The position numbers and the translations under genes are program-made. Below the pieces are notes generated by a model that saw nothing but the letters and a program-made list of their open reading frames with translations, was not told the origin of the DNA and did not search any database. A DNA stretch of 64,000 nucleotides. Origin: Candidatus Omnitrophota bacterium. Its GTDB lineage: Bacteria; Omnitrophota; Gorgyraeia; Gygaellales; Profunditerraquicolaceae. Positions 14,974 through 61,527 of this stretch are shown piece by piece. The stretch spans positions 96,366 through 160,365 of the forward strand of contig JBDRAV010000003.1 of NCBI GenBank assembly GCA_043823435.1, read 5' to 3'. How positions within the stretch are numbered: the stretch's first letter is position 1; each line of letters starts with the position of its first letter.

Positions 14974-16737
14974 TCACCTCTTTATTATTTTTTTAAGTTC
15001 TTCCTTCACCGGCACGCCATGCGAACTGAATATCTCCCGGTTATCCAGCAGATACGCCGGCCCCAACATAATTTGCAATTCCTCACTCAGCGCAATATTC
15101 TCCCTTAGAAGCCTATTCCCTTCTTCTCCGCGCGCGCAAATACTTATCTTATCCGTATCTGCTTCACCTAAGCAATCCTGCCACCATGAACTATTAATAG
15201 AATTCACCCGGCAGCTGATATAATTCCAAAACTCCTGAGGGTAATATTTCTGGACACAGACGCTGCGCAGGCATTCCTCTACTTCAAGGTTCCCTCCCTT
15301 TGCCTCAAACTTTCCCCCGGCCTTTTCGACAACTAAGAAATGCACAATAGGGTTGAATTCTCTTATCGTATTCAATAATGCCCGGGCATCCTTATGGTAT
15401 AAACTCATAAATAAATCCAGCCTTCCCTTAACGGGCTTTCTATCCAGATAATAAGCAATGCCGCTAAAACTGGGATTTAACATATAAAAATCACCCTTTG
15501 CCTGCAGGTTATTCTTTAATTTTCCAAACCCACCCCCTTCTTCCGCTTCTTTCCCCAGAAGATAAACCGGCAGGACATCGATACCCAAATCTTTGATTAA
15601 TCTGTCGGCTTCTTTCCCTGGATAATATAGGTAAGATACTGATAATCCAGGAAAGTATGTCTTCAAAAGGCTCTCCTTATCTTTAGTATAACATGTACTG
15701 CAAAGTTTAGAGGTAATGATCGAGAGGGGGACCTTGACTGCTTTAGTGAATACGCACCGTGCCTGCAATATACCGGGGGAGTCACATCTTCCTACCGACC
15801 CCTCCTGTTTGCAATTATTATCGGAGAAACAGCGCGGTAAAATAGACAGTATATCCGGATCATCGGATATCTTATCTGAAAGACGCAACTCTTCTACCCT
15901 GTAATTCGCTACTTTATTATCATTCAAATCCATGGTTAATTTCCCGATGCCGCGTCCCTGCCAGGAAGGCCTTAATATCAAAACGGCGCCTTCTTTGCTA
16001 AAAATATCTTTCTTTGTGCGGCTATGGCCTACAATAAGGATACCTATCCCCTCGACTTCCTTCAATAAACTTAAATCCTCACTCTCGCCCAGATGGCTTA
16101 TGAGTATAATAAGGTCTACTCTATTCTTTTTTAATTCTGATACTGCCTCTTTAACCGCTGTTTTCGGATCAATAAACCGCATGCCGCTTGCTCCGGCCTT
16201 CTGCTCTGCCAGAGAATTAGTCAAGCCGATTATACCTATCTTCCTGCCGGCGGATTCTTTTATAATATATGGCTTGAGCAAAGGAACCCCCGCCCCTTCT
16301 GCACAGATATTAGAAGAAAGAAAAGCTATCCGCGTCTTCCCGACATTATCCTGGAGGAACTCCATGCCGAAGTTAAATTCATCATCTCCGACTGTAGCGG
16401 CATCATACTTCATTAATTCCATTGCCTCAAGATTTACGATGGAGCGTTGCATATCCAGTTCTGTATTCTGGGTATATTCATCCTGAAGCCCGCCGGCAAA
16501 GAATCCGCCTGAATCTAACAATAAGAGGTCAGGGCTATCCTTTCTTAACTCTTTGATCAAGGTAGCGCGCCGCGCTATCCCGCCGTCCGACTGGTAATGG
16601 CAATTGCAAGGATAAAGCATTGCGTGCGTCTCGCCGGTATATAGTATGGTAATCTCCTGGGCGCTTATATCACTAGAGAACAGAAAACAGAAAACAAAGA
16701 GTGCTAGGGAGAATATAGATAAACTTTTTCTTGTCAT
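14974..16737 (-). CDS. secreted 5'-nucleotidase/metallophosphoesterase-like domain fused to Cys-rich and thioredoxin/DsbA-like C-terminal regions
   Basis: 587 aa. Signal peptide, then a UshA-like N-terminal half with altered metal motifs. Next comes a four-Cys cluster, a CSTC (CxxC) motif and a second Trx-like segment. Confidence 0.6.
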   Translation of the reverse strand: MTRKSLSIFSLALFVFCFLFSSDISAQEITILYTGETHAMLYPCNCHYQSDGGIARRATLIKELRKDSPDLLLLDSGGFFAGGLQDEYTQNTELDMQRSIVNLEAMELMKYDAATVGDDEFNFGMEFLQDNVGKTRIAFLSSNICAEGAGVPLLKPYIIKESAGRKIGIIGLTNSLAEQKAGASGMRFIDPKTAVKEAVSELKKNRVDLIILISHLGESEDLSLLKEVEGIGILIVGHSRTKKDIFSKEGAVLILRPSWQGRGIGKLTMDLNDNKVANYRVEELRLSDKISDDPDILSILPRCFSDNNCKQEGSVGRCDSPGILQARCVFTKAVKVPLSIITSKLCSTCYTKDKESLLKTYFPGLSVSYLYYPGKEADRLIKDLGIDVLPVYLLGKEAEEGGGFGKLKNNLQAKGDFYMLNPSFSGIAYYLDRKPVKGRLDLFMSLYHKDARALLNTIREFNPIVHFLVVEKAGGKFEAKGGNLEVEECLRSVCVQKYYPQEFWNYISCRVNSINSSWWQDCLGEADTDKISICARGEEGNRLLRENIALSEELQIMLGPAYLLDNREIFSSHGVPVKEELKKIIKR

Positions 16738-18320
16738 TACAGCCTGATTATTTTTACCGCTAAGATATTATCGGTTTTCTTTATCTTATCCAGGAGTTGC
16801 GCCGATACGGCACTATCCACATTCAGTATGGTAATCGCTTTTCCTCCCGGCTTTTCGCGGCCAAAGGTCATGGCGGCGATATTAATGTCGTGCTCACCAA
16901 GAAGCATCCCCATATTCCCGATAATGCCCGGCTTATCCCAGTTCTGTATCATGATCATTTCTCCCGCCGGGGAAACCTCTACGTAATAACCGCCGATCTT
17001 TACGATACGCGGCTGTTTATTCGCGGATAATGTACCAGATATCACCTTTGATTCCTTATCAGTCTTTATCTCAAGCTGTATCAGGTTCACGAACTCTTCT
17101 TCTTTAGAGGTCTTGGCCTCCCTGATCCTTATGCCCCTTTCCTTCGCCAGGCTTACGGCATTGATAAAATTTACCGTCTCCTTCAGGATAGGCGAAAGCA
17201 TCCCTTTCACGAGAGACATAGTCAAGGGGCTTAGATCATATTGCACGATCTCTCCGCTATAGCTTATGCTGAGTTCCTGGAACCTGCCCTCAACCATCTG
17301 GCCGCAAAAGGCACCCATCTTCTCGGCTAAATTGATATAGGGATCAAGGAATTTGCAAACCTCTGCTTCTATGCATGGGTAATTTGCGGCATTACGTATA
17401 CCTTTACCCAAGAGCGCATCACGTACTATCTGTGCCACTTCGATGGCGACATTGACCTGCGCTTCCTCGGTAGATGCACCCAGGTGCGGAGTTAATATGA
17501 CATTATCTAATTTTAATAACTCACTGTCGGCGGGCAATGGCTCATTTTCAAATACATCCAGCGCCGCTGCCGCTATCTTATCTTCTTTTATAGCGCTTAA
17601 TAATGCTGCCTCATCGATTATGCCCCCGCGGGCGCAATTTATTAAACGCGCCCCTTTCTTCATCGCATCGAATTCTTTGCCTGAGATTATATGTTTTGTT
17701 TCTTCGGTCAGGGGCGTATGTACGGTAATATAATCCGATTTGCCGAGGAGCTCTTTCAATTCAGCTATTTCTATACCCAGGCTCTCCGCGACTTCGCGCG
17801 ATAAAAACGGGTCATACGCCAGCACCTTCATTCCGAAAGATAAAGCACGTTTAGCCACTTCTGTGCCTATCCTGCCCAAACCCACGATACCTAATGTTTT
17901 TCCGTAAAGTTCGATCCCCATAAACTTGGAACGCTTCCATTCCCCTTTCTTCATAGAAACATTGGCCTGGGGTATATTCCTGGAGAGAGACAAGATCATG
18001 CTTATGGTATGCTCCGCGGTAGAAATAGTGTTTCCTCCGGGGGTATTCATTACGATTATCCCTTTTTGCGTGGCTGCCTCTAAATCAACGTTATCTAACC
18101 CTACCCCTGCGCGGCCGATGACTTTTAGCTTTGCGGCAGCTGCGATTATATCTTTGGTCACCTTGGTGGCGCTACGCACGATAAGGGCATCATAATTCCC
18201 GATCTCTTCTTTCAAGGCCTCAGGCTTCAGTCCAGTCTTGACATCTACCTGAAACTCCTTCACCTCTTTTAATATCTTCAGACCCTCTTCCGACAGCGGA
18301 TCACTGACTAATATTCTCAT
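16737..18320 (-). CDS. serA: D-3-phosphoglycerate dehydrogenase (long form with ACT domain)
   Basis: 527 aa. GLGRIG NAD-binding motif, 2-hydroxyacid dehydrogenase catalytic region, and a C-terminal ASB/ACT region. Confidence 0.95.
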   Translation of the reverse strand: MRILVSDPLSEEGLKILKEVKEFQVDVKTGLKPEALKEEIGNYDALIVRSATKVTKDIIAAAAKLKVIGRAGVGLDNVDLEAATQKGIIVMNTPGGNTISTAEHTISMILSLSRNIPQANVSMKKGEWKRSKFMGIELYGKTLGIVGLGRIGTEVAKRALSFGMKVLAYDPFLSREVAESLGIEIAELKELLGKSDYITVHTPLTEETKHIISGKEFDAMKKGARLINCARGGIIDEAALLSAIKEDKIAAAALDVFENEPLPADSELLKLDNVILTPHLGASTEEAQVNVAIEVAQIVRDALLGKGIRNAANYPCIEAEVCKFLDPYINLAEKMGAFCGQMVEGRFQELSISYSGEIVQYDLSPLTMSLVKGMLSPILKETVNFINAVSLAKERGIRIREAKTSKEEEFVNLIQLEIKTDKESKVISGTLSANKQPRIVKIGGYYVEVSPAGEMIMIQNWDKPGIIGNMGMLLGEHDINIAAMTFGREKPGGKAITILNVDSAVSAQLLDKIKKTDNILAVKIIRL

Positions 18321-18352
18321 CGTTCCTCCTAAATATAGTATAATTACATTGC

Positions 18353-18493
18353 AGAGACGTTTACCGAGTTAATCGGGAAGGTGTCCCTAATCCAATCGTT
18401 CTCTAAAATTGGGAAGCTATACCTTGAATTCTTTAAGGAACACCTTCCCGTTCAGACCAAAGACACTTTCCGCTTTGGCTTGGAAAACGTCTC
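18353..18493. repeat. second copy of the GAGACG-family long imperfect palindrome
   Basis: agagacgtttaccgagttaatcgggaaggtgtccc (18353-18387) matches 61396-61430 closely. Outer stem pairs 18354-18362 with 18485-18493. Inner stem pairs 18374-18386 with 18437-18450. Confidence 0.8.
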
Positions 18494-18498
18494 GGATA

Positions 18499-19635
18499 TT
18501 ATTTGAGGAATACTTCTTCAGCTGCTTTAACCCCGATTCCTAACTCAAACTTATACCCCATCTGGTACAATACTTTTTCAAGACAGGAGATACCCGCGAT
18601 AATATCAAACTCTTCTATGAAACCCATATGCGCGATCCTGATCAGCTTGCCTTTTAATTCCCCCTGGCCTCCGGCAATGGTAATGCCGTGGATATCGCGC
18701 ATGGTCTTTACTAATTTTCCTCCTTCGATACCGGCCGGCACCTTCGCCGCGGTGACCACATCAGAGGCTGCCGTAGGCGCAAGTAACTCCAACCCAAGTG
18801 CTTTTACGGCTGCCCTTGTGGCATCCGCCATCTTTTTATGGCGCGAGAAGATCGTATCTAACCCTTCCTCTCTCATTATCTTCAATGCTTCACATAGTGC
18901 GATTATCAGGGTTATCGCCGGAGTAAAAGGAGTATCCGTCACATCCGAAGCCTTCTTTGCCTTCTTCAGGCTGAAATAATACTTCGGGGACTTGGATTCC
19001 TCCACAAGCTTCCATGCCTTTGGGCTTACCGAAATGAAACCGAGGCCCGGTGGAAGCATCAACCCTTTTTGGGAACCCGAGACGACCACATCACAAGACC
19101 AAGCATCAGTCTGCAGGTCAATTGCCCCTAAGCCGCTTATGGCGTCTACTACCAGTACCGCAGGCGTATCTTTCACGACCTTACCGATAGCGGCTATATC
19201 ATTGACTACGCCGGTAGAAGTCTCGCAAAGCGTAGCAAATACCGCTTTTATTTTCGGGTTAGCCCTGAGCATCTTTCCTATCTGCTCCGGATCGACAGCC
19301 TTACCCCATTCTACGTCTATAACCTCGGGGATAATACCGTAAGTTTCACAAAGCTCGGTCCATCTCTCGCCGAATTTACCGCCCTGTATTGTTATGGCCG
19401 TGTCAGCGCAAGACAAAAGGTTAGCAACGGCTGCCTCCATCGCACCGGTGCCCGAAGAAGCAAAAATAAAGAGATCGCCTTTAGTCTGATAAATATATTT
19501 CAGCCCATCCGCTGCTTCTTTAAGTATTGCCTGGAATTGCGGTGTACGGTGATGAATAATGGGACGCGCCATTGCTTCGCAAACCTCTGGGGGCAATGGG
19601 GTAGGTCCCGGGGTCAATAGATACTGTTTTCTCAT
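18499..19635 (-). CDS. class-V aminotransferase (serine-pyruvate / phosphoserine aminotransferase type)
   Basis: 378 aa. AGXT-like sequence with SGSQKGL (PLP lysine). Upstream of serA, which suggests a phosphoserine aminotransferase role. Confidence 0.85.
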   Translation of the reverse strand: MRKQYLLTPGPTPLPPEVCEAMARPIIHHRTPQFQAILKEAADGLKYIYQTKGDLFIFASSGTGAMEAAVANLLSCADTAITIQGGKFGERWTELCETYGIIPEVIDVEWGKAVDPEQIGKMLRANPKIKAVFATLCETSTGVVNDIAAIGKVVKDTPAVLVVDAISGLGAIDLQTDAWSCDVVVSGSQKGLMLPPGLGFISVSPKAWKLVEESKSPKYYFSLKKAKKASDVTDTPFTPAITLIIALCEALKIMREEGLDTIFSRHKKMADATRAAVKALGLELLAPTAASDVVTAAKVPAGIEGGKLVKTMRDIHGITIAGGQGELKGKLIRIAHMGFIEEFDIIAGISCLEKVLYQMGYKFELGIGVKAAEEVFLK

Positions 19636-21250: not shown

Positions 21251-21303
21251 CCCGCTCTTCCTTTCCTAATTAATACCCCGACCCTTTTGGAAGGACGGGC
21301 CCC
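21247..21303 (-). promoter_or_regulatory. repeated hairpin + RBS + GTG-start leader cassette, copy A (tig)
   Basis: The 20-mer tcaccccgctcttcctttcc (21247-21266) is identical to 24506-24525. Upstream hairpin is CCCGTCCTTCCAAAAGGGTCGGGG (minus-strand sense). Confidence 0.7.
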
Positions 21304-21318
21304 CGTTTAAATGAACGC

Positions 21319-24527: not shown

Positions 24528-24557
24528 GCATACCCCTGCCCTACAGAAGGGCGGGGC
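24506..24557 (-). promoter_or_regulatory. leader cassette, copy B (kdsA-kdsD junction)
   Basis: Carries the same 20-mer as copy A. The hairpin CCCCGCCCTTCTGTAGGGCAGGGG starts right after the kdsA stop codon. Confidence 0.7.
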
Positions 24558-27127: not shown

Positions 27128-27193
27128 CCCACCCTTCCTCTCCTAATTGTATGCCCCAACCCTTTTGGAAGAGCGGGGTTCACCCCACTCTCC
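27124..27193 (-). promoter_or_regulatory. leader cassette, copy C (hldE), with an extra partial 3'-arm copy
   Basis: tcaccccacccttcctctcc (27124-27143) matches the A/B 20-mer at 17 of 20 positions. ccccgctcttcc (minus-strand sense, 27178-27167) is the exact complement of the A/B RBS segment. A duplicate GGAGAGTGGGGTG lies at 27193-27181. Confidence 0.65.
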
Positions 27194-27208
27194 TTTATTA
27201 TCTTAACT

Positions 27209-27229
27209 CCGGCCCTCAGGAAGGGCCGG
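27209..27229 (-). other. GC-rich hairpin directly after the DHS-like gene stop (terminator-like, no U-run)
   Basis: ccggccc (27209-27215) and gggccgg (27223-27229) form a perfect 7-bp stem with a 7-nt loop. Confidence 0.5.
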
Positions 27230-27231
27230 GT

Positions 27232-28220: not shown

Positions 28221-30248
28221 TCAACTATTCAAAATGGCATCCGCGGCAACTATAACATCATCCGTGGTTATCGCTTTAAGACACGCGAACTTCTTGGTGC
28301 AGTTATGCGCCAGACACTCTATACATCCGACCTCTTTATGCAGGACTTTATCTTTTATCCCGATCGGGCCCCAGCGTAGCGGCCCTAAACCCTTCTGGTT
28401 CCTGCCAAAAATAGAGATCACCGGTGTGCCTACGGCCACGGCAATATGCACGGGGCCGGAATCATTAGAGATAAATAAATCACACCTCTTCAAGATGCTG
28501 GCTAACTGGCTGACCGAAGTCTTTCCTGCCAGGTTGACCGCTGGCCGCTGCATATGTTTGACGACGCTCTCAGCCAACGTAATATCCTTAGGACCGCAGA
28601 CCACCAACACCTTGAAGCCATATTTTTCGTTTAACCTGTCAGCTGCTTCAGCGAACCCCTCATACGGCCAGATCTTCGAAGGGCAACTCGCACCCGGATG
28701 TATAGCTAATAATTTATCTGTCTCGCTTATCCCTTCCTGCCTGAACAACTCTTCTACCCAGGCTTCGGATTCTGGTTTCAGTGACATGAATATTTTATTG
28801 TCTTGCGGCTCAATGCCCAGATACCTGACTAAATCCAGGGCATACTCTGACTCATGTTTTTCTCCTGACTGCTTGGTATGCTTTATCCTGTCGGTAAGTA
28901 AAAATCCCAGTTTGCGGTCATAGCCGACCCTGCGGCGTATGCCGGCAAAGAGAGTCACCAGATGCGCGCGGTTGGTAGGATGAAGTATGACCGCTAAAGT
29001 AAACCTCCTCTTCTTAAGTCCCTGCGAGAATCTTAATGAACCCAACCAGCCTTTTTCTTTACCGTCCTTATCGTAAATAATCACTTCATCTAGACACGGA
29101 TTTCCGTCCACGATATCTTTTGTATAAGGAGAGACCATCGCCGCAATATATGCTGAAGGACAGCTATCCCTCAGTGCCTTTATTACCGGAGTCGATAAAA
29201 GCACGTCCCCTATCCTGTCCGTACGCACGATGAGTATGCGTTTATACTCGGTGCTCGGTGCTCGGTGCTCGGTGCTCTGAATTAATATTCTTCTGGCTTG
29301 CCTCAATACGTCTTCTGTTTTGATAAGCTGCATGCATCTTAATGTACCGTGGGCGCACTGCGCTTTTTCGCAAGGACGACAGAAGATATCTTTTTTTACT
29401 ACCGAATATAAGCGTGACCGGGGGCCGTATTTTCTTTCATTGGTCGGTCCGAAAACCGCCACAACCGGCGTATCCAGGTAACTTGCCAGGTGAAGCGTGG
29501 CGCTATCATTGGTAACCACGAGCGCGGATTTTCTCAGTAAAGAGGCAAGCTGCGCAATATTCGTCTTTGCGCTTAGATCCAAAAGGGGATATCGCGTATG
29601 CCCGGCTATGTATTTGTTGACCGGCGCGTCATCATTATCGCCGACCAAAACCACTTTGACTTTAAGCTCTTCTATTAAAGACTCGATTAACTGCGCGAAT
29701 TTATCCTGCTCCCATCTTTTTATATGGCTCCTGGCTCCGGCAGCAATAACGACTATCCTTTCCTGCCCGGTAATATTATTTTCCTTAAGAATATCTATAA
29801 TATATCTTTCATCTTCAGGCTTAACGCATAAAGACACCTGTTTAGTTTTATCATAAAGTCTCAACTTGAGTTTTAGCACCCTGTACAGGTGTCTATCTCT
29901 CATATGCATTATGCATTTTGGAATAACCAGAAGAGGGGAAGTCTTATCTCTGGCAGGTAACAACGCCCCGAAAAGACTGTTACGCATATCCGCGATGATG
30001 TCAAAGCCTTCAACTTTAAGCGCATTAAATAATTTTATCTTCTCCCTTAATGAAGAACGCTTATCGTAAATAATAAGCCTCTTAATATGGGGATTATCCC
30101 GGAATATATCTTTTGTGCGAACCCCGGATACTACCGTGACCTCTGACCCGGAGAAATTATCCACCAGGGTATCCAGGACCGGTAAAGTAAGGATGCAGTC
30201 GCCTATATTGCTTAAAGTAATAAAGAGTACCTTATTAACCATACCCAT
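28221..30248 (-). CDS. tandem glycosyltransferase family 9 (two heptosyltransferase-like modules in one ORF)
   Basis: 675 aa. Two GT9-type N-terminal motifs (VLFITLSNIGDCILTLP and ILIVRTDRIGDVLLSTP) and two C-terminal SNDSGPxH-like motifs. The modules are joined by a heptamer-repeat-encoded linker. Confidence 0.8.
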   Translation of the reverse strand: MGMVNKVLFITLSNIGDCILTLPVLDTLVDNFSGSEVTVVSGVRTKDIFRDNPHIKRLIIYDKRSSLREKIKLFNALKVEGFDIIADMRNSLFGALLPARDKTSPLLVIPKCIMHMRDRHLYRVLKLKLRLYDKTKQVSLCVKPEDERYIIDILKENNITGQERIVVIAAGARSHIKRWEQDKFAQLIESLIEELKVKVVLVGDNDDAPVNKYIAGHTRYPLLDLSAKTNIAQLASLLRKSALVVTNDSATLHLASYLDTPVVAVFGPTNERKYGPRSRLYSVVKKDIFCRPCEKAQCAHGTLRCMQLIKTEDVLRQARRILIQSTEHRAPSTEYKRILIVRTDRIGDVLLSTPVIKALRDSCPSAYIAAMVSPYTKDIVDGNPCLDEVIIYDKDGKEKGWLGSLRFSQGLKKRRFTLAVILHPTNRAHLVTLFAGIRRRVGYDRKLGFLLTDRIKHTKQSGEKHESEYALDLVRYLGIEPQDNKIFMSLKPESEAWVEELFRQEGISETDKLLAIHPGASCPSKIWPYEGFAEAADRLNEKYGFKVLVVCGPKDITLAESVVKHMQRPAVNLAGKTSVSQLASILKRCDLFISNDSGPVHIAVAVGTPVISIFGRNQKGLGPLRWGPIGIKDKVLHKEVGCIECLAHNCTKKFACLKAITTDDVIVAADAILNS
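29247..29274. repeat. (CTCGGTG)x4 tandem heptamer inside the tandem-GT9 ORF
   Basis: Four perfect copies, 29247-29274, followed by a partial ctc. They encode STEHRAPSTE in the inter-module linker. Confidence 0.9.
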
Positions 30249-30254
30249 ATCTTT

Positions 30255-30334
30255 GCACCGTCTGCCAATTCAATCTCGTACCCGGTGCGAGATTAGAAAC
30301 AAAGCAGGTACCCGATTACCTCGGCACCAGGTAC
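30255..30334. repeat. degenerate 23-nt-periodic array, 4 units, related to GCACCWGGTGC
   Basis: Unit starts at 30255, 30278, 30301 and 30324. Cores read gcaccgtctgc / gtacccggtgc / aaagcaggtac / gcaccaggtac. The 12-mer caatctcgtacc is shared with 57554-57565. Confidence 0.6.
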
Positions 30335-30338
30335 TATC

Positions 30339-35324: not shown

Positions 35325-37297
35325 AATACCTTCTTTATCGCTTCTTTAACCAGAAGGTTATCCTTAAGGGTATTTATCACGGGGCGCTCCAGCATTATCC
35401 GGTTGACTTCCGCGGAAAGGTTATCAGCTTGCGTTAAATATATATATCTCTTTTCGGCAAAATACTCAAGGAACCTGCGGTGCTTACTGTTTAGGCCCGG
35501 GGAATCAAAGACCACCACGTATCTTGCGCTGCTTACCGCCTCAGAGATCATGGATATGCTTTCGGCGGAGATAATGACGATATCGCTTAAGGCCAGTATC
35601 CCGGCTACCGCATCCGGGATATTCTTTTCATTGGCAATGATCAGAAGCTTGCATGCGGGATAATCAATGAATTCTTCCTTTAGTAAACTTTCAACCGCAA
35701 CCGGTGTCCTGCGCGAAGTAGTGACCATCAATTCTGCCCCAAACTTCTCTATGCCCATCTTGATCTGCCGCGATACTTCCTTCACCAAACCTGCATTCAA
35801 ATGAAAAGCCTTGGCATCACCGCCCACCAATACGCCCAATACCGGCACTTTACCGGCCTGAACACCCAGCTCTTTAAGGGCCTCTCCGGCCCTTTTCAGG
35901 CGATCTTCATTGATTGAATTTAACGCGCCTTCAATCACCGCGACATTCTTTCTTTCGGGGTGGCGGTGGCTTCGGCTATCGGCAACCAAACCAGGGCCCC
36001 CTGGCAGGTCATGCCGACTCATTACCACTAGGTCAAACCTGTTCGTACTTAATATAGAGGGTCGCATGAGCACTATCGATTTAGCCAGGCTCTCCCTTGA
36101 AATGACATAATTAACAGGTGCGACTGATGTCCCACAGGAGATCACTATGTCCGGTTTAATACTTATCAATTCCTTATAGATTTCTTCTTTCAATAACTTC
36201 TTCAGGCACCCCTGACAGGAGTATTTACCTGATAACACGCAGCTTGCGGCCATGGCAACGCGGGAATATTTACCCCTGAACTTTATCTCTACCGCATTAA
36301 CGCTTGTACTTATGCCTTTCTCGCGCAGGGAATCACTGACTATACCGGCAATCCCCTCAGACTGCCTGAGGTGCCCGGCCTTACCGTCGCTTAAGATCAA
36401 AATATTCCGCTCTCTGCTATATTTCCATATCTTGTACGACCAAAGGTAATCCCGCGGATATTTTACAATATACCTTTCAAATAAGGCCGTCAACGCCTGC
36501 AGATTATCATTTATATCCTTTTCCGGGTCGCCCGTTTTCTTGATTTCAAATGGCGGCTCAACAAAGGCCTTTATGTAGGGTCCTTTTACCCGCGTGTAAA
36601 AGGAAGGGATAATGCAGGCGTCATATTTCAGGGCGAGCCTCACCGCGCCCGAGGGCATAGAAGCGTATTTACCGAAAAATTTTACCTGCGTGCCCGACTT
36701 ACCGCCCTGGTCCGCGGTCATCCCTATCGCCTCATTATTCTTAAGCGCCTTTATCAACTCACGGGTCTGATCCTCCTTCTGGATCAACCTGCAGCCCTTC
36801 TGGTTGCGGTATGAATTAAGGAGGCCATTTAAACGCGGGAACTTCTGGACGCGGATAAAGAGGTTAAAAGGAAAACCCAGGTTCGCGCAGATAATGCTCG
36901 AGAGTTCCCAGCTGCCAGCGTGCACGGTGACAAGGATCACTCCCTTGCCTCTCTTGAAACCTTCATCTATATTCTCTTTACCGTAGATAACCGCATATTT
37001 ACTTATGTATGCCGCGTCCATCAGGGGGATCAGCAGTATCTCGACGAGGCTCTGCCCGAATGCCCGGTAAAATTCTTTTGTCAGGCGGTTTAATTCCCGG
37101 GGCGATAACCCCGCGCCGATTGCGGTTTTTATATTCACGTAAGCTATTGCCCTGTGTTTGCGGTCAAGGTAATAAAAAACTTCTCCCATCCTCGCGCCCA
37201 GGAAGATGCTCGCGCTAACAGGCAGACTCCTTATAAGCGGGCCGATGAGCTTAATGAGAAAATAACCCAAGTAATCTACTACGGAATCCTTCTTCAT
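35321..37297 (-). CDS. LpxL/HtrB-type lipid A acyltransferase fused to an ELM1/DUF1022-like domain
   Basis: 658 aa. The N-terminal ~290 aa carry the HAGSWE (Hx4E) acyltransferase motif. The C-terminal half begins ILILSDGKAGHLRQSEGIA, which is typical of DUF1022. Confidence 0.7.
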   Translation of the reverse strand: MKKDSVVDYLGYFLIKLIGPLIRSLPVSASIFLGARMGEVFYYLDRKHRAIAYVNIKTAIGAGLSPRELNRLTKEFYRAFGQSLVEILLIPLMDAAYISKYAVIYGKENIDEGFKRGKGVILVTVHAGSWELSSIICANLGFPFNLFIRVQKFPRLNGLLNSYRNQKGCRLIQKEDQTRELIKALKNNEAIGMTADQGGKSGTQVKFFGKYASMPSGAVRLALKYDACIIPSFYTRVKGPYIKAFVEPPFEIKKTGDPEKDINDNLQALTALFERYIVKYPRDYLWSYKIWKYSRERNILILSDGKAGHLRQSEGIAGIVSDSLREKGISTSVNAVEIKFRGKYSRVAMAASCVLSGKYSCQGCLKKLLKEEIYKELISIKPDIVISCGTSVAPVNYVISRESLAKSIVLMRPSILSTNRFDLVVMSRHDLPGGPGLVADSRSHRHPERKNVAVIEGALNSINEDRLKRAGEALKELGVQAGKVPVLGVLVGGDAKAFHLNAGLVKEVSRQIKMGIEKFGAELMVTTSRRTPVAVESLLKEEFIDYPACKLLIIANEKNIPDAVAGILALSDIVIISAESISMISEAVSSARYVVVFDSPGLNSKHRRFLEYFAEKRYIYLTQADNLSAEVNRIMLERPVINTLKDNLLVKEAIKKVL

Positions 37298-38351
37298 TTT
37301 TTATGATCTTCAATTCTATGCGCAGGAACCATACCGGCAACTTATAGCCGGTAACCGGAAGCTGGTAAAGCCTGGATGCGTCTTTCTCGGTAGTGACCAG
37401 CACGCTTATTCCCGTATCTGTGGATTTGCTAATAATCTCATCCATATCTTTCTGGGTATAATTATAATGGTCGCGGAACCTGAAAGAAGTGCCGATATTC
37501 ACCCCCTGTTTGCTGACCAGCAGCTCAAAAGAAGCGGGGTCCGCTATGGCAGAGAATAAACCCGCGCTCTTACCCGCCAGCATATCCGCCCCCATCAGTT
37601 CACGCGGTTTATCCAGCCTGCAAAATCCCAAAGGGGCATGCGCGGACTCTACCTGAAAGGCCCCCGGATTGATACGCCTCAAATAACCCTTGACCTCATC
37701 TTGTGCCGGGCTAATATTGGCCTTGGTCAGTATAAAGATGTCGGCGCGTTTAAGCGATGAAAGCGGCTCGCGCAATATCCCGCGGGGGATAAGATTACGG
37801 TTCCCGAAAGGGAAGGTACTGTCAACGGCAACTATCTCAAGGTCCTTTTTTATGCGCCACTGCTGCATCCCGTCATCCAAGATCACCGTATCCGCTCCGT
37901 AATCGCGTATTGCCGAATTTCCCGCGCGTATCCTATCATGATCTACTATCACGGGTATATCTTTCAAGTTCATCTGCAGCATATAAGGCTCATCGCCCAT
38001 TGCCTCGGCGTTCGGTGTTCGGTGTTCGGTGTTCGGCCGAGAACCGAGAACCGAGAACCGAGAACCCATTCTTTTATATCCTCTGCTAAGTATCGCTACT
38101 TTATGCCCATGCTCCTTTAAATAGCGCGCAATATACAATACGAGGGATGTCTTCCCTGTCCCGCCCAAAGTAATATTTCCCACGCTGATAACTTTACATC
38201 CCAGCCGGTAAGGTTTAATGCGATAAATAAAGAGTAATATCCTGACAACTAGTCCATAGATAAGAGAGATAAGGTAGAGAAAAGAATTGAGCGTCCCCGC
38301 TACGGGCCCTCTATGTTTATCTGTGGCCAGTTCGTAAATATAACGTAACAT
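37251..38351 (-). CDS. lpxK: tetraacyldisaccharide 4'-kinase
   Basis: P-loop GNITLGGTGKT, SRGY and GDEP motifs. I prefer the start at ATG 38351 (MLRYIYE), which overlaps the stop of the upstream gene (TGATG). The ORF-track start at 38507 lies inside that gene. Confidence 0.85.
   Translation of the reverse strand: MLRYIYELATDKHRGPVAGTLNSFLYLISLIYGLVVRILLFIYRIKPYRLGCKVISVGNITLGGTGKTSLVLYIARYLKEHGHKVAILSRGYKRMGSRFSVLGSRPNTEHRTPNAEAMGDEPYMLQMNLKDIPVIVDHDRIRAGNSAIRDYGADTVILDDGMQQWRIKKDLEIVAVDSTFPFGNRNLIPRGILREPLSSLKRADIFILTKANISPAQDEVKGYLRRINPGAFQVESAHAPLGFCRLDKPRELMGADMLAGKSAGLFSAIADPASFELLVSKQGVNIGTSFRFRDHYNYTQKDMDEIISKSTDTGISVLVTTEKDASRLYQLPVTGYKLPVWFLRIELKIIKNEEGFRSRLLGLFSH
38004..38064. repeat. 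two-armed heptamer palindrome inside lpxK
   Basis: ctcggcg (ttcggtg)x3 ttcgg, then (ccgagaa)x4. The central tcggccga is a perfect 8-nt palindrome. The element encodes GSRFSVLGSRPNTEHRTPNAE. Confidence 0.9.
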
Positions 38352-38623
38352 CAGATCCTTCCCAATAACATCAGTATGCCCATTACGATAAATAATGACG
38401 CCCCGGCATACCTGATAAGCTCGGGCTTTAAATATTTTGCCAGGACAGCTCCCAGAATAACCGATAAAATAGTAACAGCGGCGTAGGCCAAAACAGAGCC
38501 TGCCCATACGGACAAGGGCCTGCCGGATTTCGCAGACATGCTTATCCCCACCAGTTGCGTCTTATCCGCAAGCTCCGCGAAGAACACTGCCGTGAATGTA
38601 GCCATAAATATTTTCCACTCCAT
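38351..38623 (-). CDS. UPF0016 (GDT1/TMEM165) family membrane protein, single-repeat form
   Basis: 90 aa. Three TM helices, an ELADKT (E-x-G-D-K-T-like) motif and an AAAGAGGAG SD. Confidence 0.75.
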   Translation of the reverse strand: MEWKIFMATFTAVFFAELADKTQLVGISMSAKSGRPLSVWAGSVLAYAAVTILSVILGAVLAKYLKPELIRYAGASLFIVMGILMLLGRI

Positions 38624-48294: not shown

Positions 48295-48310
48295 ATCTAC
48301 CTCCAATTTT

Positions 48311-48367
48311 GCACCTGGTGCCAGATTAACTTTGCACCAGGTGCAAAGTTAAGATTGTACCTGTCCC
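48311..48367. repeat. 23-nt-periodic array, 3 units, core GCACCWGGTGC
   Basis: Unit starts at 48311, 48334 and 48357. Cores read gcacctggtgc / gcaccaggtgc / gtacctgtccc. Unit 2 is the centre of a 25-nt perfect palindrome at 48327-48351. Confidence 0.85.
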
Positions 48368-48369
48368 CT

Positions 48370-57524: not shown

Positions 57525-57537
57525 CAGTTTTAATATT

Positions 57538-57617
57538 GCACCTGGTGCGAAACCAATCTCGTACCTGTCCTGTTTTTGTGCTGGCACCTGGTGCGCGATT
57601 GCATTTGCACCTGGTGC
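57538..57617. repeat. 23-nt-periodic array, 4 units, core GCACCTGGTGC
   Basis: Unit starts at 57538, 57561, 57584 and 57607. Cores read gcacctggtgc / gtacctgtcct / gcacctggtgc / gcacctggtgc. Confidence 0.85.
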
Positions 57618-58081
57618 TATTTTATTCTTCTTACCTTTATCTTCGCTTCCTTTAAGAATTCCTGCGCTAATTTATCCGGATAGTATCCTACGGTGACTAT
57701 CTCTTTAACGCCGCCGTTAATGAGCATCTTGGCGCAGATAATACAGGGCTGATTGGTAATGTAAAGAACGCTCTCTTTCGTGCTTACCCCGTGGAGCGCC
57801 GCCTGAAGCAATACATTCTGCTCCGCGTGCAGGCCGCGGCAGAGCTCATGGCGCTCTCCGGAGGGAATCTTCATCTTTTCTCTCAGGCAGCCGATATCAA
57901 TGCAGTGCCTGATACCCGAAGGCGCTCCGTTATAACCTGTAGCTAATATCTTCTTCTCCTTTACCAGGACAGCGCCTACCTTGCGCCGAAGGCAGGTCGC
58001 CCTCTTAGAGACTAAAAAAGCTACCTCTAAGAAATATTCATCCCAGCTTGGGCGTTTATAAGCATTCTGCTTCTTTTTCAT
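57617..58081 (-). CDS. comEB: dCMP deaminase (ComEB-type)
   Basis: 154 aa. HAEQN and PCIICAK zinc motifs. Confidence 0.9.
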
Positions 58082-61356: not shown

Positions 61357-61372
61357 AACCCCCTCCTTAATT

Positions 61373-61517
61373 AGAGACGTTTTCCAACCTAATCCAGAGA
61401 CGTTTTCCGAGCTAATCGGGAACCTGTCCCCTATAAGGAACGGGTTCCGCTTTGGACCAGAAGACGTCTCCGCTTTGAGCTGGTAGACGTCTTTGCTTTG
61501 GGGCGGAAAGCGTCTCT
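61373..61517. repeat. two-armed 23-nt-periodic GAGACG/CGTCTC array (about 145 nt)
   Basis: Left-arm units at 61373 and 61396 (agagacgttttcc...). Central GGAACC/GGTTCC hairpin at 61419-61448. Right-arm CGTCT units at 61465, 61488 and 61511. Confidence 0.85.
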
Positions 61518-61527
61518 GTTTTATTGT

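What the first reader, a model, noticed from the sequence alone, without database searches (positions are those of the whole stretch)
18353..18493. Second GAGACG-family long palindrome between the class-V aminotransferase and serA
Positions 18353-18387 (agagacgtttaccgagttaatcgggaaggtgtccc) match 61396-61430 almost base for base. The element closes with aaacgtctc (18485-18493), which pairs with gagacgttt (18354-18362). An inner stem pairs 18374-18386 with 18437-18450.

Like the purD-purE copy, it sits between two functionally linked, co-directional genes and ends about 25 nt before the downstream AGGAGG RBS. Two copies in the same kind of context (intra-operon, just upstream of an RBS) suggest selection for position, or insertion-site preference.
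Basis: seen in the sequence. Interest (0 to 1): 0.55.

Follow-up and report, generated by a model that had tools for sequence, protein, structure and literature searches.

The report
Modular palindromic repeat inside an operon
The 140-base palindrome before serA is one copy of an undescribed family of hairpin-forming repeats, built from 23-base modules, that has been inserted between genes in some Candidatus Omnitrophota genomes; it resembles the REP/REPIN "junk-or-useful" repeats of better-known bacteria and is not a serA-specific switch.

Summary
Window 18354-18493 is a 140-nt imperfect palindrome lying between a class-V aminotransferase gene and serA, both on the minus strand. It is homologous to the purD-purE element at 61374-61516.

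A covariance model built without the serA copy finds it at 55 bits (E about 2e-10). Across 11 copies the stems keep pairing through compensatory changes.

It is not a gene-specific regulator:
- The same family sits next to unrelated genes (recA, a MiaB-like gene, H+-PPase, rplU) in other Candidatus Omnitrophota MAGs and metagenomes.
- Its orientation relative to neighbouring genes is mixed.
- It is absent from the same junction in the closest relative found.
- In other relatives both junctions are 4-nt gene overlaps.

The family is modular. Exact 23-nt units (a 10-12-nt box plus an 11-13-nt linker) form direct runs that invert once, giving hairpins of 55 to more than 400 nt.

No Rfam family, paper, plasmid, phage or viral contig matches it.

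Best reading: a REPIN/BIME-like dispersed palindromic repeat, a new variant of a known kind. It is transcribed within the operon, where the hairpin probably uncouples the two cistrons. How it spreads and whether it has a function remain inferred.

The parts
18354..18493 (-). Complete element of the finding (140 nt, about six 23-nt modules), read in gene sense on the minus strand
   Evidence: CM R1 hit at 55.1 bits, E 1.9e-10. Folds. Sequence.
18482..18493 (-). Outer box, 5' arm: GAGACGTTTTCC
   Evidence: Pairs with 18354-18365.
18449..18481 (-). 5' linker AAGCCAAAGCG plus one extra module GAAAGTGTCTTTGGTCTGAACG. CCAAAG and CTTTGG pair locally.
   Evidence: This module is absent from the short form in L105.
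18437..18448 (-). Inner box, 5' arm: GGAAGGTGTTCC
   Evidence: 13-bp inner stem. It covaries with the purE copy, CC/GG swapped for GG/CC.
18388..18436 (-). Variable centre (49 nt) holding a further CCAAT...ATTGG inverted pair. It is absent from short forms.
18376..18387 (-). Inner box, 3' arm: GGGACACCTTCC
18354..18375 (-). 3' linker CGATTAACTCGG plus outer box TAAACGTCTC, the most conserved module of the family
   Evidence: (D20)
18499..19635 (-). Upstream gene: class-V aminotransferase (378 aa). Its stop codon is 8 nt before the element.
16737..18320 (-). Downstream gene: serA, D-3-phosphoglycerate dehydrogenase (527 aa). AGGAGG lies 23 nt after the element.
61374..61516 (-). Second copy, between purD and purE (143 nt). 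It has three 23-nt modules, a central hairpin, then two modules.
   Evidence: D3, D20; period 23; inner 61397-61470 at 84 bits, used in training
48307..48369 (-). Sister array with the same 23-nt period and the shared module GGGGACAGGTAC, but with box GCACCWGGTGC. It lies between the SNase-like gene and aroC.
   Evidence: (D1, D2)
57527..57630 (-). Sister array (GCACCAGGTGC boxes at 23 or 46-nt spacing) between the deaminase gene and nrdR. These two genes overlap in L108.
30249..30338 (-). Sister array (GTACCTGGTGC / GCACCGGGTAC boxes, 23-nt spacing) between two heptosyltransferase genes
   Evidence: (D1)

Best explanation
**What it is.** The element is one copy of an undescribed family of dispersed, modular, palindromic extragenic repeats of Candidatus Omnitrophota.

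**Anatomy (shown)**
- It is built from 23-nt modules, each a 10-12-nt box followed by an 11-13-nt linker.
- Modules run head to tail, invert once, and run back. One strand can therefore fold into a long hairpin.
- The minimal 73-nt form has four parts:
  - a 12-bp outer stem, GAGACGYTTTCC paired with GGWAAACGTCTC;
  - an imperfect linker helix, CAAAGCG opposite CGATTRG, with recurrent purine-purine mismatches that give the element a polarity;
  - an inner stem of about 12 bp whose sequence varies but covaries;
  - a short loop.
- The serA copy is this form plus one extra module and a 49-nt centre.

**History (shown)**
- It is an insertion into a gene junction that is short or overlapping in relatives.
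- Copies differ by whole modules.

**Spread (inferred).** It probably spreads as a non-autonomous element through a single-stranded hairpin intermediate, as REPINs do with a RAYT-type transposase. Arrays would grow by unit slippage or unequal exchange.

**Effect (inferred).** It is co-transcribed with the aminotransferase-serA operon. The RNA would form a hairpin of about -55 kcal/mol. The hairpin starts 8 nt after the stop codon and ends 23 nt before the Shine-Dalgarno sequence. This would break translational coupling. It could also act as a 3'-exonuclease barrier or an RNase III site, so that the two cistrons accumulate differently.
For: **Family membership and structure**
- CM hit E 1.9e-10 for the serA copy, with further copies in many loci.
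- Covariation: 88.1% of cells paired against 27-51% when partners are slid; 9 pairs and 17 cells with double changes; 0 of 500 shuffles reach this.

**Modularity**
- Tandem-repeat period 23.
- 32 of 36 neighbour-box distances are exact multiples of 23.
- Arrays of about 20 phased units occur in L053 and L099.

**Dispersal to unrelated loci and genomes**
- Two Omnitrophota MAGs, upstream of recA and of a MiaB-like gene.
- About 25 metagenome loci beside glycosyltransferase, PilZ, MFS, RNase G/rplU and H+-PPase genes.
- Three copies in consecutive spacers of L051.

**Presence/absence polymorphism**
- Aminotransferase-serA junction: L104 has none, L105 has the 73-nt short form at the same junction, L106 and L107 have other inserts, L110 and L111 have a different hairpin, and L112 is a 4-nt overlap.
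- purD-purE junction: L108 holds a same-architecture hairpin with both outer boxes changed, and L113 and L114 are 4-nt overlaps.
- The family is absent from 106 kb of six related loci.

**Not a known RNA or a signal**
- No Rfam match.
- No sense-strand promoter or terminator.

**Analogy.** REPINs are roughly 71-110-bp hairpins of inverted REPs with frequent compensatory changes (PMC3116915).
Against: - No transposase of any kind was seen in the 64-kb window or in the 32 kb of the second carrier genome.
- No target-site duplication is visible.
- The whole genome could not be retrieved, so copy number is extrapolated from 2 (+3 sister) arrays in 64 kb.
- Both junctions are occupied in two different genomes. 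Also, 14 of 21 window spacers of at least 49 nt fold with z of -3 or lower. Both facts would also fit selection for intercistronic hairpins.
- The same 23-nt period in two box families suggests a constraint, such as a bound protein, that a purely selfish model does not explain.
- Direct-only arrays (L016, L087, L101) cannot form the hairpin.
- Fold energies do not favour the gene-sense strand.
Confidence: 0.62

Rival explanations
1. A selected intercistronic RNA structure. The hairpin was recruited, or arose in place, to set the relative stability, processing or translation of the two cistrons. The clade uses such hairpins generally between genes of an operon.
For: - Hairpins are the rule in spacers of this genome and its relatives, made from different unit families of 7, 8 and 23 nt.
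- Both junctions are occupied in two genomes.
- Stems are kept by compensatory changes.
- The L108 purE hairpin has both outer boxes changed together.
- The element starts within 0-11 nt of stop codons in the window.
Against: - The element is absent from the same junctions in close relatives, which keep a short spacer or 4-nt overlaps.
- The same sequence family lies in promoter regions, in convergent spacers and in antisense orientation.
- The sense strand does not fold better than the antisense strand.
- Direct-only arrays have no hairpin.
Confidence: 0.22
2. An array of binding sites in double-stranded DNA for an abundant sequence-specific protein, such as a nucleoid-associated protein or a global regulator. 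Each 23-bp module would be one site.
For: - The 23-nt phasing is exact across two unrelated box families.
- Boxes of the sister family are perfect palindromes, GCACCWGGTGC.
- The linker core GATTRG/CTTTGG is conserved while the boxes vary.
- Some metagenome copies abut sigma-70-like promoters.
Against: - The window copies lie inside operons with no sense promoter.
- Boxes of the two arms covary to stay complementary. This is not required for tandem duplex sites.
- No candidate protein was identified.
- 23 bp is off helical phase.
Confidence: 0.1
3. A gene-specific riboswitch or leader sensing serine, purine or one-carbon status and controlling serA and purE.
For: Two copies precede genes of linked metabolism.
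Against: - No Rfam match even at E of 10 or below.
- Absent before serA and purE in relatives.
- Present before recA, a MiaB-like gene, H+-PPase, rplU and others.
- The structure is a plain long hairpin without a conserved multi-helix core.
Confidence: 0.02
4. A chance palindrome or an assembly artefact.
For: None beyond the fact that the source is a MAG.
Against: - Homologous copies occur in independent assemblies from NCBI, JGI, ENA and Logan.
- L108 and L109 give the same hairpin from two different data sets.
- E about 2e-10.
Confidence: 0.01

Closest known systems
REPINs / REP sequences with RAYT transposases (Pseudomonas, E. coli; Bertels and Rainey 2011, PMC3116915)
   Same: - Short extragenic repeats arranged as inverted pairs that form hairpins of about 70-110 nt in ssDNA or mRNA.
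- Conserved ends, a less conserved middle, and frequent compensatory changes.
- Many loci per genome, often between co-transcribed genes.
- Higher-order clusters exist.
- Patchy distribution among relatives.
   Different: - The terminal box here is not itself a small palindrome.
- There is no conserved GTAG-type 5' tetranucleotide.
- No RAYT gene was seen in the DNA available.
- Arrays are direct runs of exact 23-nt modules with one inversion, rather than tandem copies of whole doublets.
BIMEs (bacterial interspersed mosaic elements) of enterobacteria
   Same: A mosaic of a few repeat motifs joined by a small set of conserved linker motifs. Extragenic and intra-operon location. From my own knowledge, the proposed roles are mRNA 3' protection and protein binding.
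   Different: BIMEs alternate REP orientation at every unit. Here the orientation changes once per element. The unit length (23 nt), the sequences and the phylum all differ.
MITEs such as Correia/NEMIS (Neisseria) and ERIC/IRU (own knowledge)
   Same: Non-coding elements with terminal inverted repeats, inserted in intergenic DNA, co-transcribed, and able to form RNase III-sensitive hairpins.
   Different: No target-site duplication, no parent insertion sequence, an internally periodic structure, and length that varies by whole modules.
Cyanobacterial STRR heptamer repeats and small dispersed repeats (Elhai et al. 2008; own knowledge, mentioned in PMC3116915)
   Same: Very small units (7-27 nt) that build tandem and nested arrays in intergenic DNA. 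Relatives of this genome show inverted heptamer arrays in the same spacers.
   Different: Different phylum and sequences. Here the units form one large palindrome with conserved polarity.

Membership tests
REP/REPIN-RAYT system | Extragenic repeats organised as inverted doublets that can fold into a hairpin | tested here: met
   The short form is a 73-nt hairpin. All copies examined lie between ORFs.
REP/REPIN-RAYT system | High copy number within one genome (tens to hundreds) | tested here: inconclusive
   - There are 2 GAGACG-type and 3 sister arrays in 64 kb.
- There are 3 copies in 6 kb of L051 and 2-3 in L038.
- The complete genome could not be fetched.
REP/REPIN-RAYT system | A cognate RAYT (Y1 transposase, PF01797) gene, usually flanked by the repeats | tested here: inconclusive
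   None was found among window proteins (plus synteny annotation) or among neighbours of arrays. Only about 100 kb of the carrier genomes was seen.
REP/REPIN-RAYT system | Each REP is a short imperfect palindrome preceded by a conserved tetranucleotide (GTAG/CTAC) | tested here: not met
   Terminal modules GAGACGYTTTCC and CGATTRGNTNGGWAAACGTCTC carry no such head and are not self-complementary.
BIME | Mosaic of repeat units and a small set of linker motifs | tested here: met
   Boxes are GACAGCTTCC, GACACTTTCC and GACGTYTCC. Linkers are CGATTGG.., GCTTTGG.. and TGTGTGG...
BIME | Units alternate in orientation along the cluster | tested here: not met
   Runs of up to 9 same-strand units with one inversion point.
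MITE | Terminal inverted repeats | tested here: met
   GAGACGTTT ... AAACGTCTC
MITE | Target-site duplication flanking the element, and a related autonomous insertion sequence | tested here: not met
   Flanks of seven copies share no direct repeat. No transposase was seen.
Riboswitch or other curated cis-regulatory RNA | Match to a curated covariance model, and conserved association with the regulated gene | tested here: not met
   Rfam gave 0 hits at gathering thresholds and only microRNA-type noise at E of 10 or below. The element is absent before serA and purE in relatives.
Intrinsic terminator | GC-rich hairpin followed by a U tract on the transcribed strand | tested here: not met
   No terminator-like site on the minus strand at either locus.
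CRISPR array | Identical repeats separated by unique spacers of similar length | tested here: not met
   Modules abut each other and no unique spacers are present. No cas domains were seen among the proteins scanned.

The most novel reading that the evidence does not exclude
The 23-nt module may be the recognition unit of an unknown sequence- and structure-specific machine peculiar to Omnitrophota. That machine could be a new, non-RAYT way of copying hairpin DNA module by module. Alternatively, it could be an abundant protein that binds each module in RNA or DNA and organises intercistronic mRNA processing, somewhat as helical-repeat proteins do in organelles. This would explain three things: box families with different sequences share the exact 23-nt period; the linker core (GATTRG/CTTTGG) stays constant while boxes covary; and junctions that are 4-nt overlaps elsewhere are repeatedly filled.
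Probability: 0.15. Interest if true: 0.75.

Novelty: new variant of a known kind. Interest (0 to 1): 0.45.

Why it matters
Omnitrophota are uncultivated bacteria, often ultra-small, with compact genomes. Finding that their tightest gene junctions are repeatedly opened by a modular hairpin repeat has several consequences:

- It gives a marker for strain-level genome dynamics.
- It probably explains some assembly breaks in their MAGs.
- It provides a natural experiment on what a -55 kcal/mol hairpin does to operon expression.

The family also extends REP/REPIN-type elements to a new phylum with an unusual building rule: exact 23-nt modules, constant linkers and covarying boxes. That rule is a concrete handle for finding the enzyme or binding protein behind it.

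If the element turns out to be only selfish DNA, it is an ordinary though undescribed repeat family.

Tried and rejected
- **Rfam.** Searched the whole window at gathering thresholds and both spacers at E of 10 or below. Only microRNA-precursor noise came back.
- **Source contig.** I tried to retrieve it through exact SerA and PurE look-ups. Neither is on record, although PurE is 100% identical to a protein on a 165,882-nt NCBI Omnitrophota contig.
- **Metagenome pattern scan.** It returned 100 loci. About two thirds are an unrelated repeat (GATTGGCTGGGAAAACGTCTCcgaaatgacc...) from what look like animal-associated metagenomes. I discarded these as chance matches to the 21-mer. One genome hit (L001, Nocardioides dnaX coding sequence) is also chance.
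- **Literature.** Searching the box sequences and "Omnitrophota + repeat + intergenic" found only primers and nothing relevant.
- **Mobile-element collections.** Plasmid, phage and viral-contig searches found no match.
- **RNA-level strand signature.** I compared sense and antisense fold energies and G-U counts. There was no consistent bias toward the gene strand.
- **Orientation rule.** The first four copies all pointed toward the downstream gene. With about 16 co-directional cases the split is roughly 10 to 6.
- **Ideas considered and dropped.**
  - Promoter or terminator.
  - CsrA-type GGA sponge (GGA motifs follow from the box sequence on both strands).
  - Integron attC (no integron integrase; housekeeping genes).
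  - Plasmid iterons (chromosomal, inside operons).
  - IHF site in the linker (no consensus match).

Full report
**Observation**

The window is 46.7% G+C, and almost every gene is on the minus strand with very short spacers. The finding lies in the 178-nt spacer 18321-18498. Upstream is a class-V aminotransferase gene (18499-19635, minus). Downstream is a full-length D-3-phosphoglycerate dehydrogenase gene, serA (16737-18320, minus).

- 18352-18387 matches 61395-61430 at 89% over 36 nt (D20).
- GAGACGTTT occurs exactly at 18354 (+) and 18485 (-).
- The inner 13-bp stem appears in the minimum-energy folds of both strands. The energies are -55.2 and -54.9 kcal/mol, z is -4.2 and -5.0, and no shuffle of 200 folds as well.

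The purD-purE spacer (61357-61527) folds even more strongly, at -65.6 and -72.6 kcal/mol. The similarity between the copies extends to the other arm (D3).

**Anatomy**

Read in gene sense, both copies resolve into 23-nt modules.

The purE copy reads:
- GAGACGCTTTCCGCCCCAAAGCA
- AAGACGTCTACCAGCTCAAAGCG
- GAGACGTCTTCTGGTCCAAAGCG
- a central hairpin (GGAACCCGTTCC..GGGGACAGGTTCC)
- CGATTAGCTCGGAAAACGTCTC
- TGGATTAGGTTGGAAAACGTCTC

Tandem Repeats Finder reports period 23 for this copy.

The serA copy is 140 nt, which is 6 x 23 + 2. In order it contains:
- the outer box GAGACGTTTTCC;
- the linker AAGCCAAAGCG;
- one extra module;
- the inner box GGAAGGTGTTCC;
- a 49-nt centre;
- the inner box GGGACACCTTCC;
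- the linker CGATTAACTCGG;
- the outer box TAAACGTCTC.

Between the two copies the inner stem has swapped CC/GG for GG/CC, so pairing is kept while the sequence changes.

**The family outside the window**

An exact-pattern scan of one genome per species found the right-arm module in two Candidatus Omnitrophota MAGs:
- a 74-nt hairpin upstream of recA (L002);
- a half element directly before the ATG of a MiaB/RimO-like gene, between divergent genes (L003).

The scan also returned one chance coding match.

SerA and PurE homologues confirm that the window is from Omnitrophota.

A looser 21-mer scan of metagenomes returned 100 loci. About 25 are true relatives. The rest are an unrelated repeat that shares the 21-mer by chance.

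The true relatives show the building rule clearly:
- Arrays are made of exact 23-nt units.
- Each unit has a 10-12-nt box: GACAGCTTCC, GACACTTTCC, GACGTCTCC or GACGTTTTCC.
- Each unit also has an 11-13-nt linker: CGATTGGGTTGG, GCTTTGGGCCCC, TGTGTGGCGCGG or TATTCAGCTTCC.
- Arrays reach about 20 units, for example L053 250-720 and L099 1-420.
- Most arrays run in one direction, invert once and run back. A few are direct only.
- Of 36 distances between neighbouring same-strand boxes, 32 are exact multiples of 23.

Three further spacers of the window (30249-30338, 48307-48369, 57527-57630) carry arrays with the same 23-nt period. They also share a module (GGGGACAGGTAC) and GATTRG-type linkers, but their box is GCACCWGGTGC.

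**Homology and covariation**

I built a covariance model from six short forms, leaving out the serA copy. It finds window 18354-18493(-) at 55.1 bits, E 1.9e-10. It also finds new full copies in L051 (three, in consecutive spacers of co-directional genes), L021, L038, L026, L013, L007 and L040.

One strand always scores about 30 bits above the other. On the better-scoring strand the 5' linker reads CAAAGCG and the 3' linker reads CGATTRG. The palindrome therefore has a conserved polarity.

I made an ungapped alignment of the outer 36 nt of each arm from 11 copies and counted a 26-pair structure on it:
- 88.1% of cells are paired, against 27-51% when partners are slid by 1-3 columns.
- Nine pairs and 17 cells change on both sides.
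- None of 500 shuffles reaches any of four measures.

Two caveats apply. Most metagenome copies were retrieved through the right-arm 21-mer, so conservation of that arm is partly ascertainment. Covariation in a DNA palindrome can also arise from templated repair between the arms, not only from selection on RNA.

**Is it tied to serA or purE? No.**

All loci in the table below keep the tig-clpP-aminotransferase-serA gene order, so the junction is orthologous.

| Locus | SerA identity to window | State of the aminotransferase-serA junction |
|---|---|---|
| L104 | 91% | 25-nt spacer, no element |
| L105 | 89% | 73-nt short form, same place and orientation |
| L106 and L107 | 88% | two different unrelated inserts |
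| L110 and L111 | 85-86% | a different hairpin made of (AAGGCT)n/(AGCCTTA)n |
| L112 | 82% | the two genes overlap by 4 nt |

An alignment of the junction shows coding flanks aligning across a clean insertion.

| Locus | PurE identity to window | State of the purD-purE junction |
|---|---|---|
| L108 and L109 (L108 is the same genome as L105) | 81% | 73-nt hairpin of identical architecture and linkers, with both outer boxes changed together (GGGACGGTTCTC / GAACCGTCCC) |
| L113 | 84% | 4-nt overlap |
| L114 | 80% | 4-nt overlap |

The deaminase-nrdR junction carries a roughly 100-nt array in the window but is an overlap in L108.

The model finds nothing, even at E of 10 or below, in 106 kb from L104, L106, L107 and L110-L112.

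Neighbours of arrays elsewhere are unrelated housekeeping genes: glycosyltransferases, PilZ, MFS, RNase G/rplU, a hydrolase and H+-PPase.

Orientation relative to co-directional neighbours is mixed, roughly 10 sense to 6 antisense, from crude ORF calls.

**What it is not**
- No Rfam family matches.
- There is no sense-strand promoter or terminator.
- The modules abut, so there are no CRISPR-like spacers.
- I saw no target-site duplication.
- No transposase appears in the window or in 32 kb of the second carrier genome. The only recombinase is a XerC-like gene next to topA.
- There is no match in plasmids, phages or viral contigs, and none in the literature by sequence or topic.

**Interpretation**

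The best-supported reading is an undescribed REPIN/BIME-like family. It consists of dispersed extragenic repeats that form hairpins. It has conserved ends and covarying stems, and it gains and loses whole modules. Its distribution among close relatives is patchy, and it sits in junctions that are otherwise overlaps.

REPINs are described in just these terms: inverted REP doublets, hairpins of about 71-110 bp, common compensatory changes and higher-order clusters (PMC3116915).

What separates this family:
- It has no GTAG-type head.
- Its terminal boxes are not self-complementary.
- No RAYT has been found so far.
- It follows a strict 23-nt module rule, with constant linkers and variable boxes.

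For these reasons I file it as a new variant of a known kind, not as a member of the REP-RAYT system.

**How it works**

The steps that are shown:
- It is an insertion.
- It is modular and palindromic with polarity.
- It lies inside a co-directional gene string with no sense promoter or terminator, so it should be co-transcribed.

The steps that are inferred:
- It spreads through a single-strand hairpin intermediate.
- Arrays grow by slippage or unequal exchange.
- In the mRNA, a hairpin of about -55 kcal/mol starts 8 nt after the stop codon and ends 23 nt before AGGAGG.
- That hairpin replaces translational coupling (seen as 4-nt overlaps in relatives) with independent initiation.
- It may also protect the upstream cistron from 3' exonucleases or offer an RNase III site.

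Fold energies do not favour the gene-sense strand. This argues against strong RNA-level selection on these two copies.

**Open point**

Hairpins are the norm in this clade's spacers. In the window, 14 of 21 spacers of at least 49 nt fold with z of -3 or lower. Relatives fill the same junctions with hairpins made from quite different 7-8-nt units.

Either a mutational process here readily builds inverted tandem arrays, or intercistronic hairpins are useful to these organisms. The shared exact 23-nt period of two box families hints at a ruler (an enzyme or a binding protein) that I could not identify.

**Scores**
- Interest: 0.45.
- Probability of the more novel reading (a module-recognising machine specific to the phylum): about 0.15.

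Noticed in passing
window 30249-30338, 48307-48369, 57527-57630: A second box family, with the perfect palindrome GCACCWGGTGC, is arrayed at exactly 23 or 46-nt spacing in three other intra-operon spacers. It shares the module GGGGACAGGTAC and GATTRG-type linkers with the GAGACG family. The deaminase-nrdR junction that carries one of these arrays is a gene overlap in L108.
   Followed up: partly
window 24528-24557, 27128-27231, 21251-21310; also L110 526-618, L111 200-257, L112 4108-4155 and 7245-7313: A third hairpin family bridges gene junctions. The upstream stop codon sits in TGAACCCCGC(C/A)C... and the downstream GTG start sits in ...G(C/A)GCGGGGTG, so the stop and start codons lie in the two arms of one stem. 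Three window genes share the start context GGAAAGGAAGAGCGGGGTG (D16).
   Followed up: no
window 38005-38066 (inside lpxK, 37251-38507) and 29247-29277 (inside the 675-aa heptosyltransferase gene): Heptamer tandem repeats lie inside coding sequence. In lpxK, (GGTTCTC)x4 is followed by the inverted (CGAACAC)x3-4. This gives an in-frame insert of about 21 codons (..GSRFSVLGSRPNTEHRTPNAEA..) that can fold as a hairpin, reminiscent of Rickettsia palindromic elements inserted in genes.
   Followed up: partly
L110 8694-8785, 14702-14789, 18627-18711, 20290-20393; L112 17177-17282, 18864-18991; L111 7611-7696: In related Omnitrophota genomes, the spacers of the same conserved gene string hold hairpins whose arms are tandem runs of 7-8-nt units (GTTATAG, GTAACTC, AAAATCA and others) with the complementary units in the other arm. 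The families differ from genome to genome.
   Followed up: no
L108 16100-16164: A small member-like element overlaps a stop codon. It has two direct 23-nt units, GGGACACCCTTT + (TTGCCAATCGA / CTGCCAAAGCT), followed by one inverted box, AAGGGTGTCCC. The single inverted box could pair with either direct unit, giving two alternative hairpins.
   Followed up: no
L003 2075-2081: The MiaB/RimO-like gene starts 3 nt after the element (..AAACGTCTCTATATGAAAGTT) with no Shine-Dalgarno sequence in between. The start may be leaderless or otherwise unusual.
   Followed up: no
(PurE homologue list): Most contigs carrying close PurE homologues are only 1-3 kb long. One possibility is that assemblies break at repeats next to purE. 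This was not tested.
   Followed up: no
window, whole: GC skew of the plus strand is -0.13 throughout, and almost all genes are on the minus strand. The window therefore lies on one replichore, with the gene strand as the G-rich strand. Both window copies have their higher-scoring strand on that strand.
   Followed up: partly
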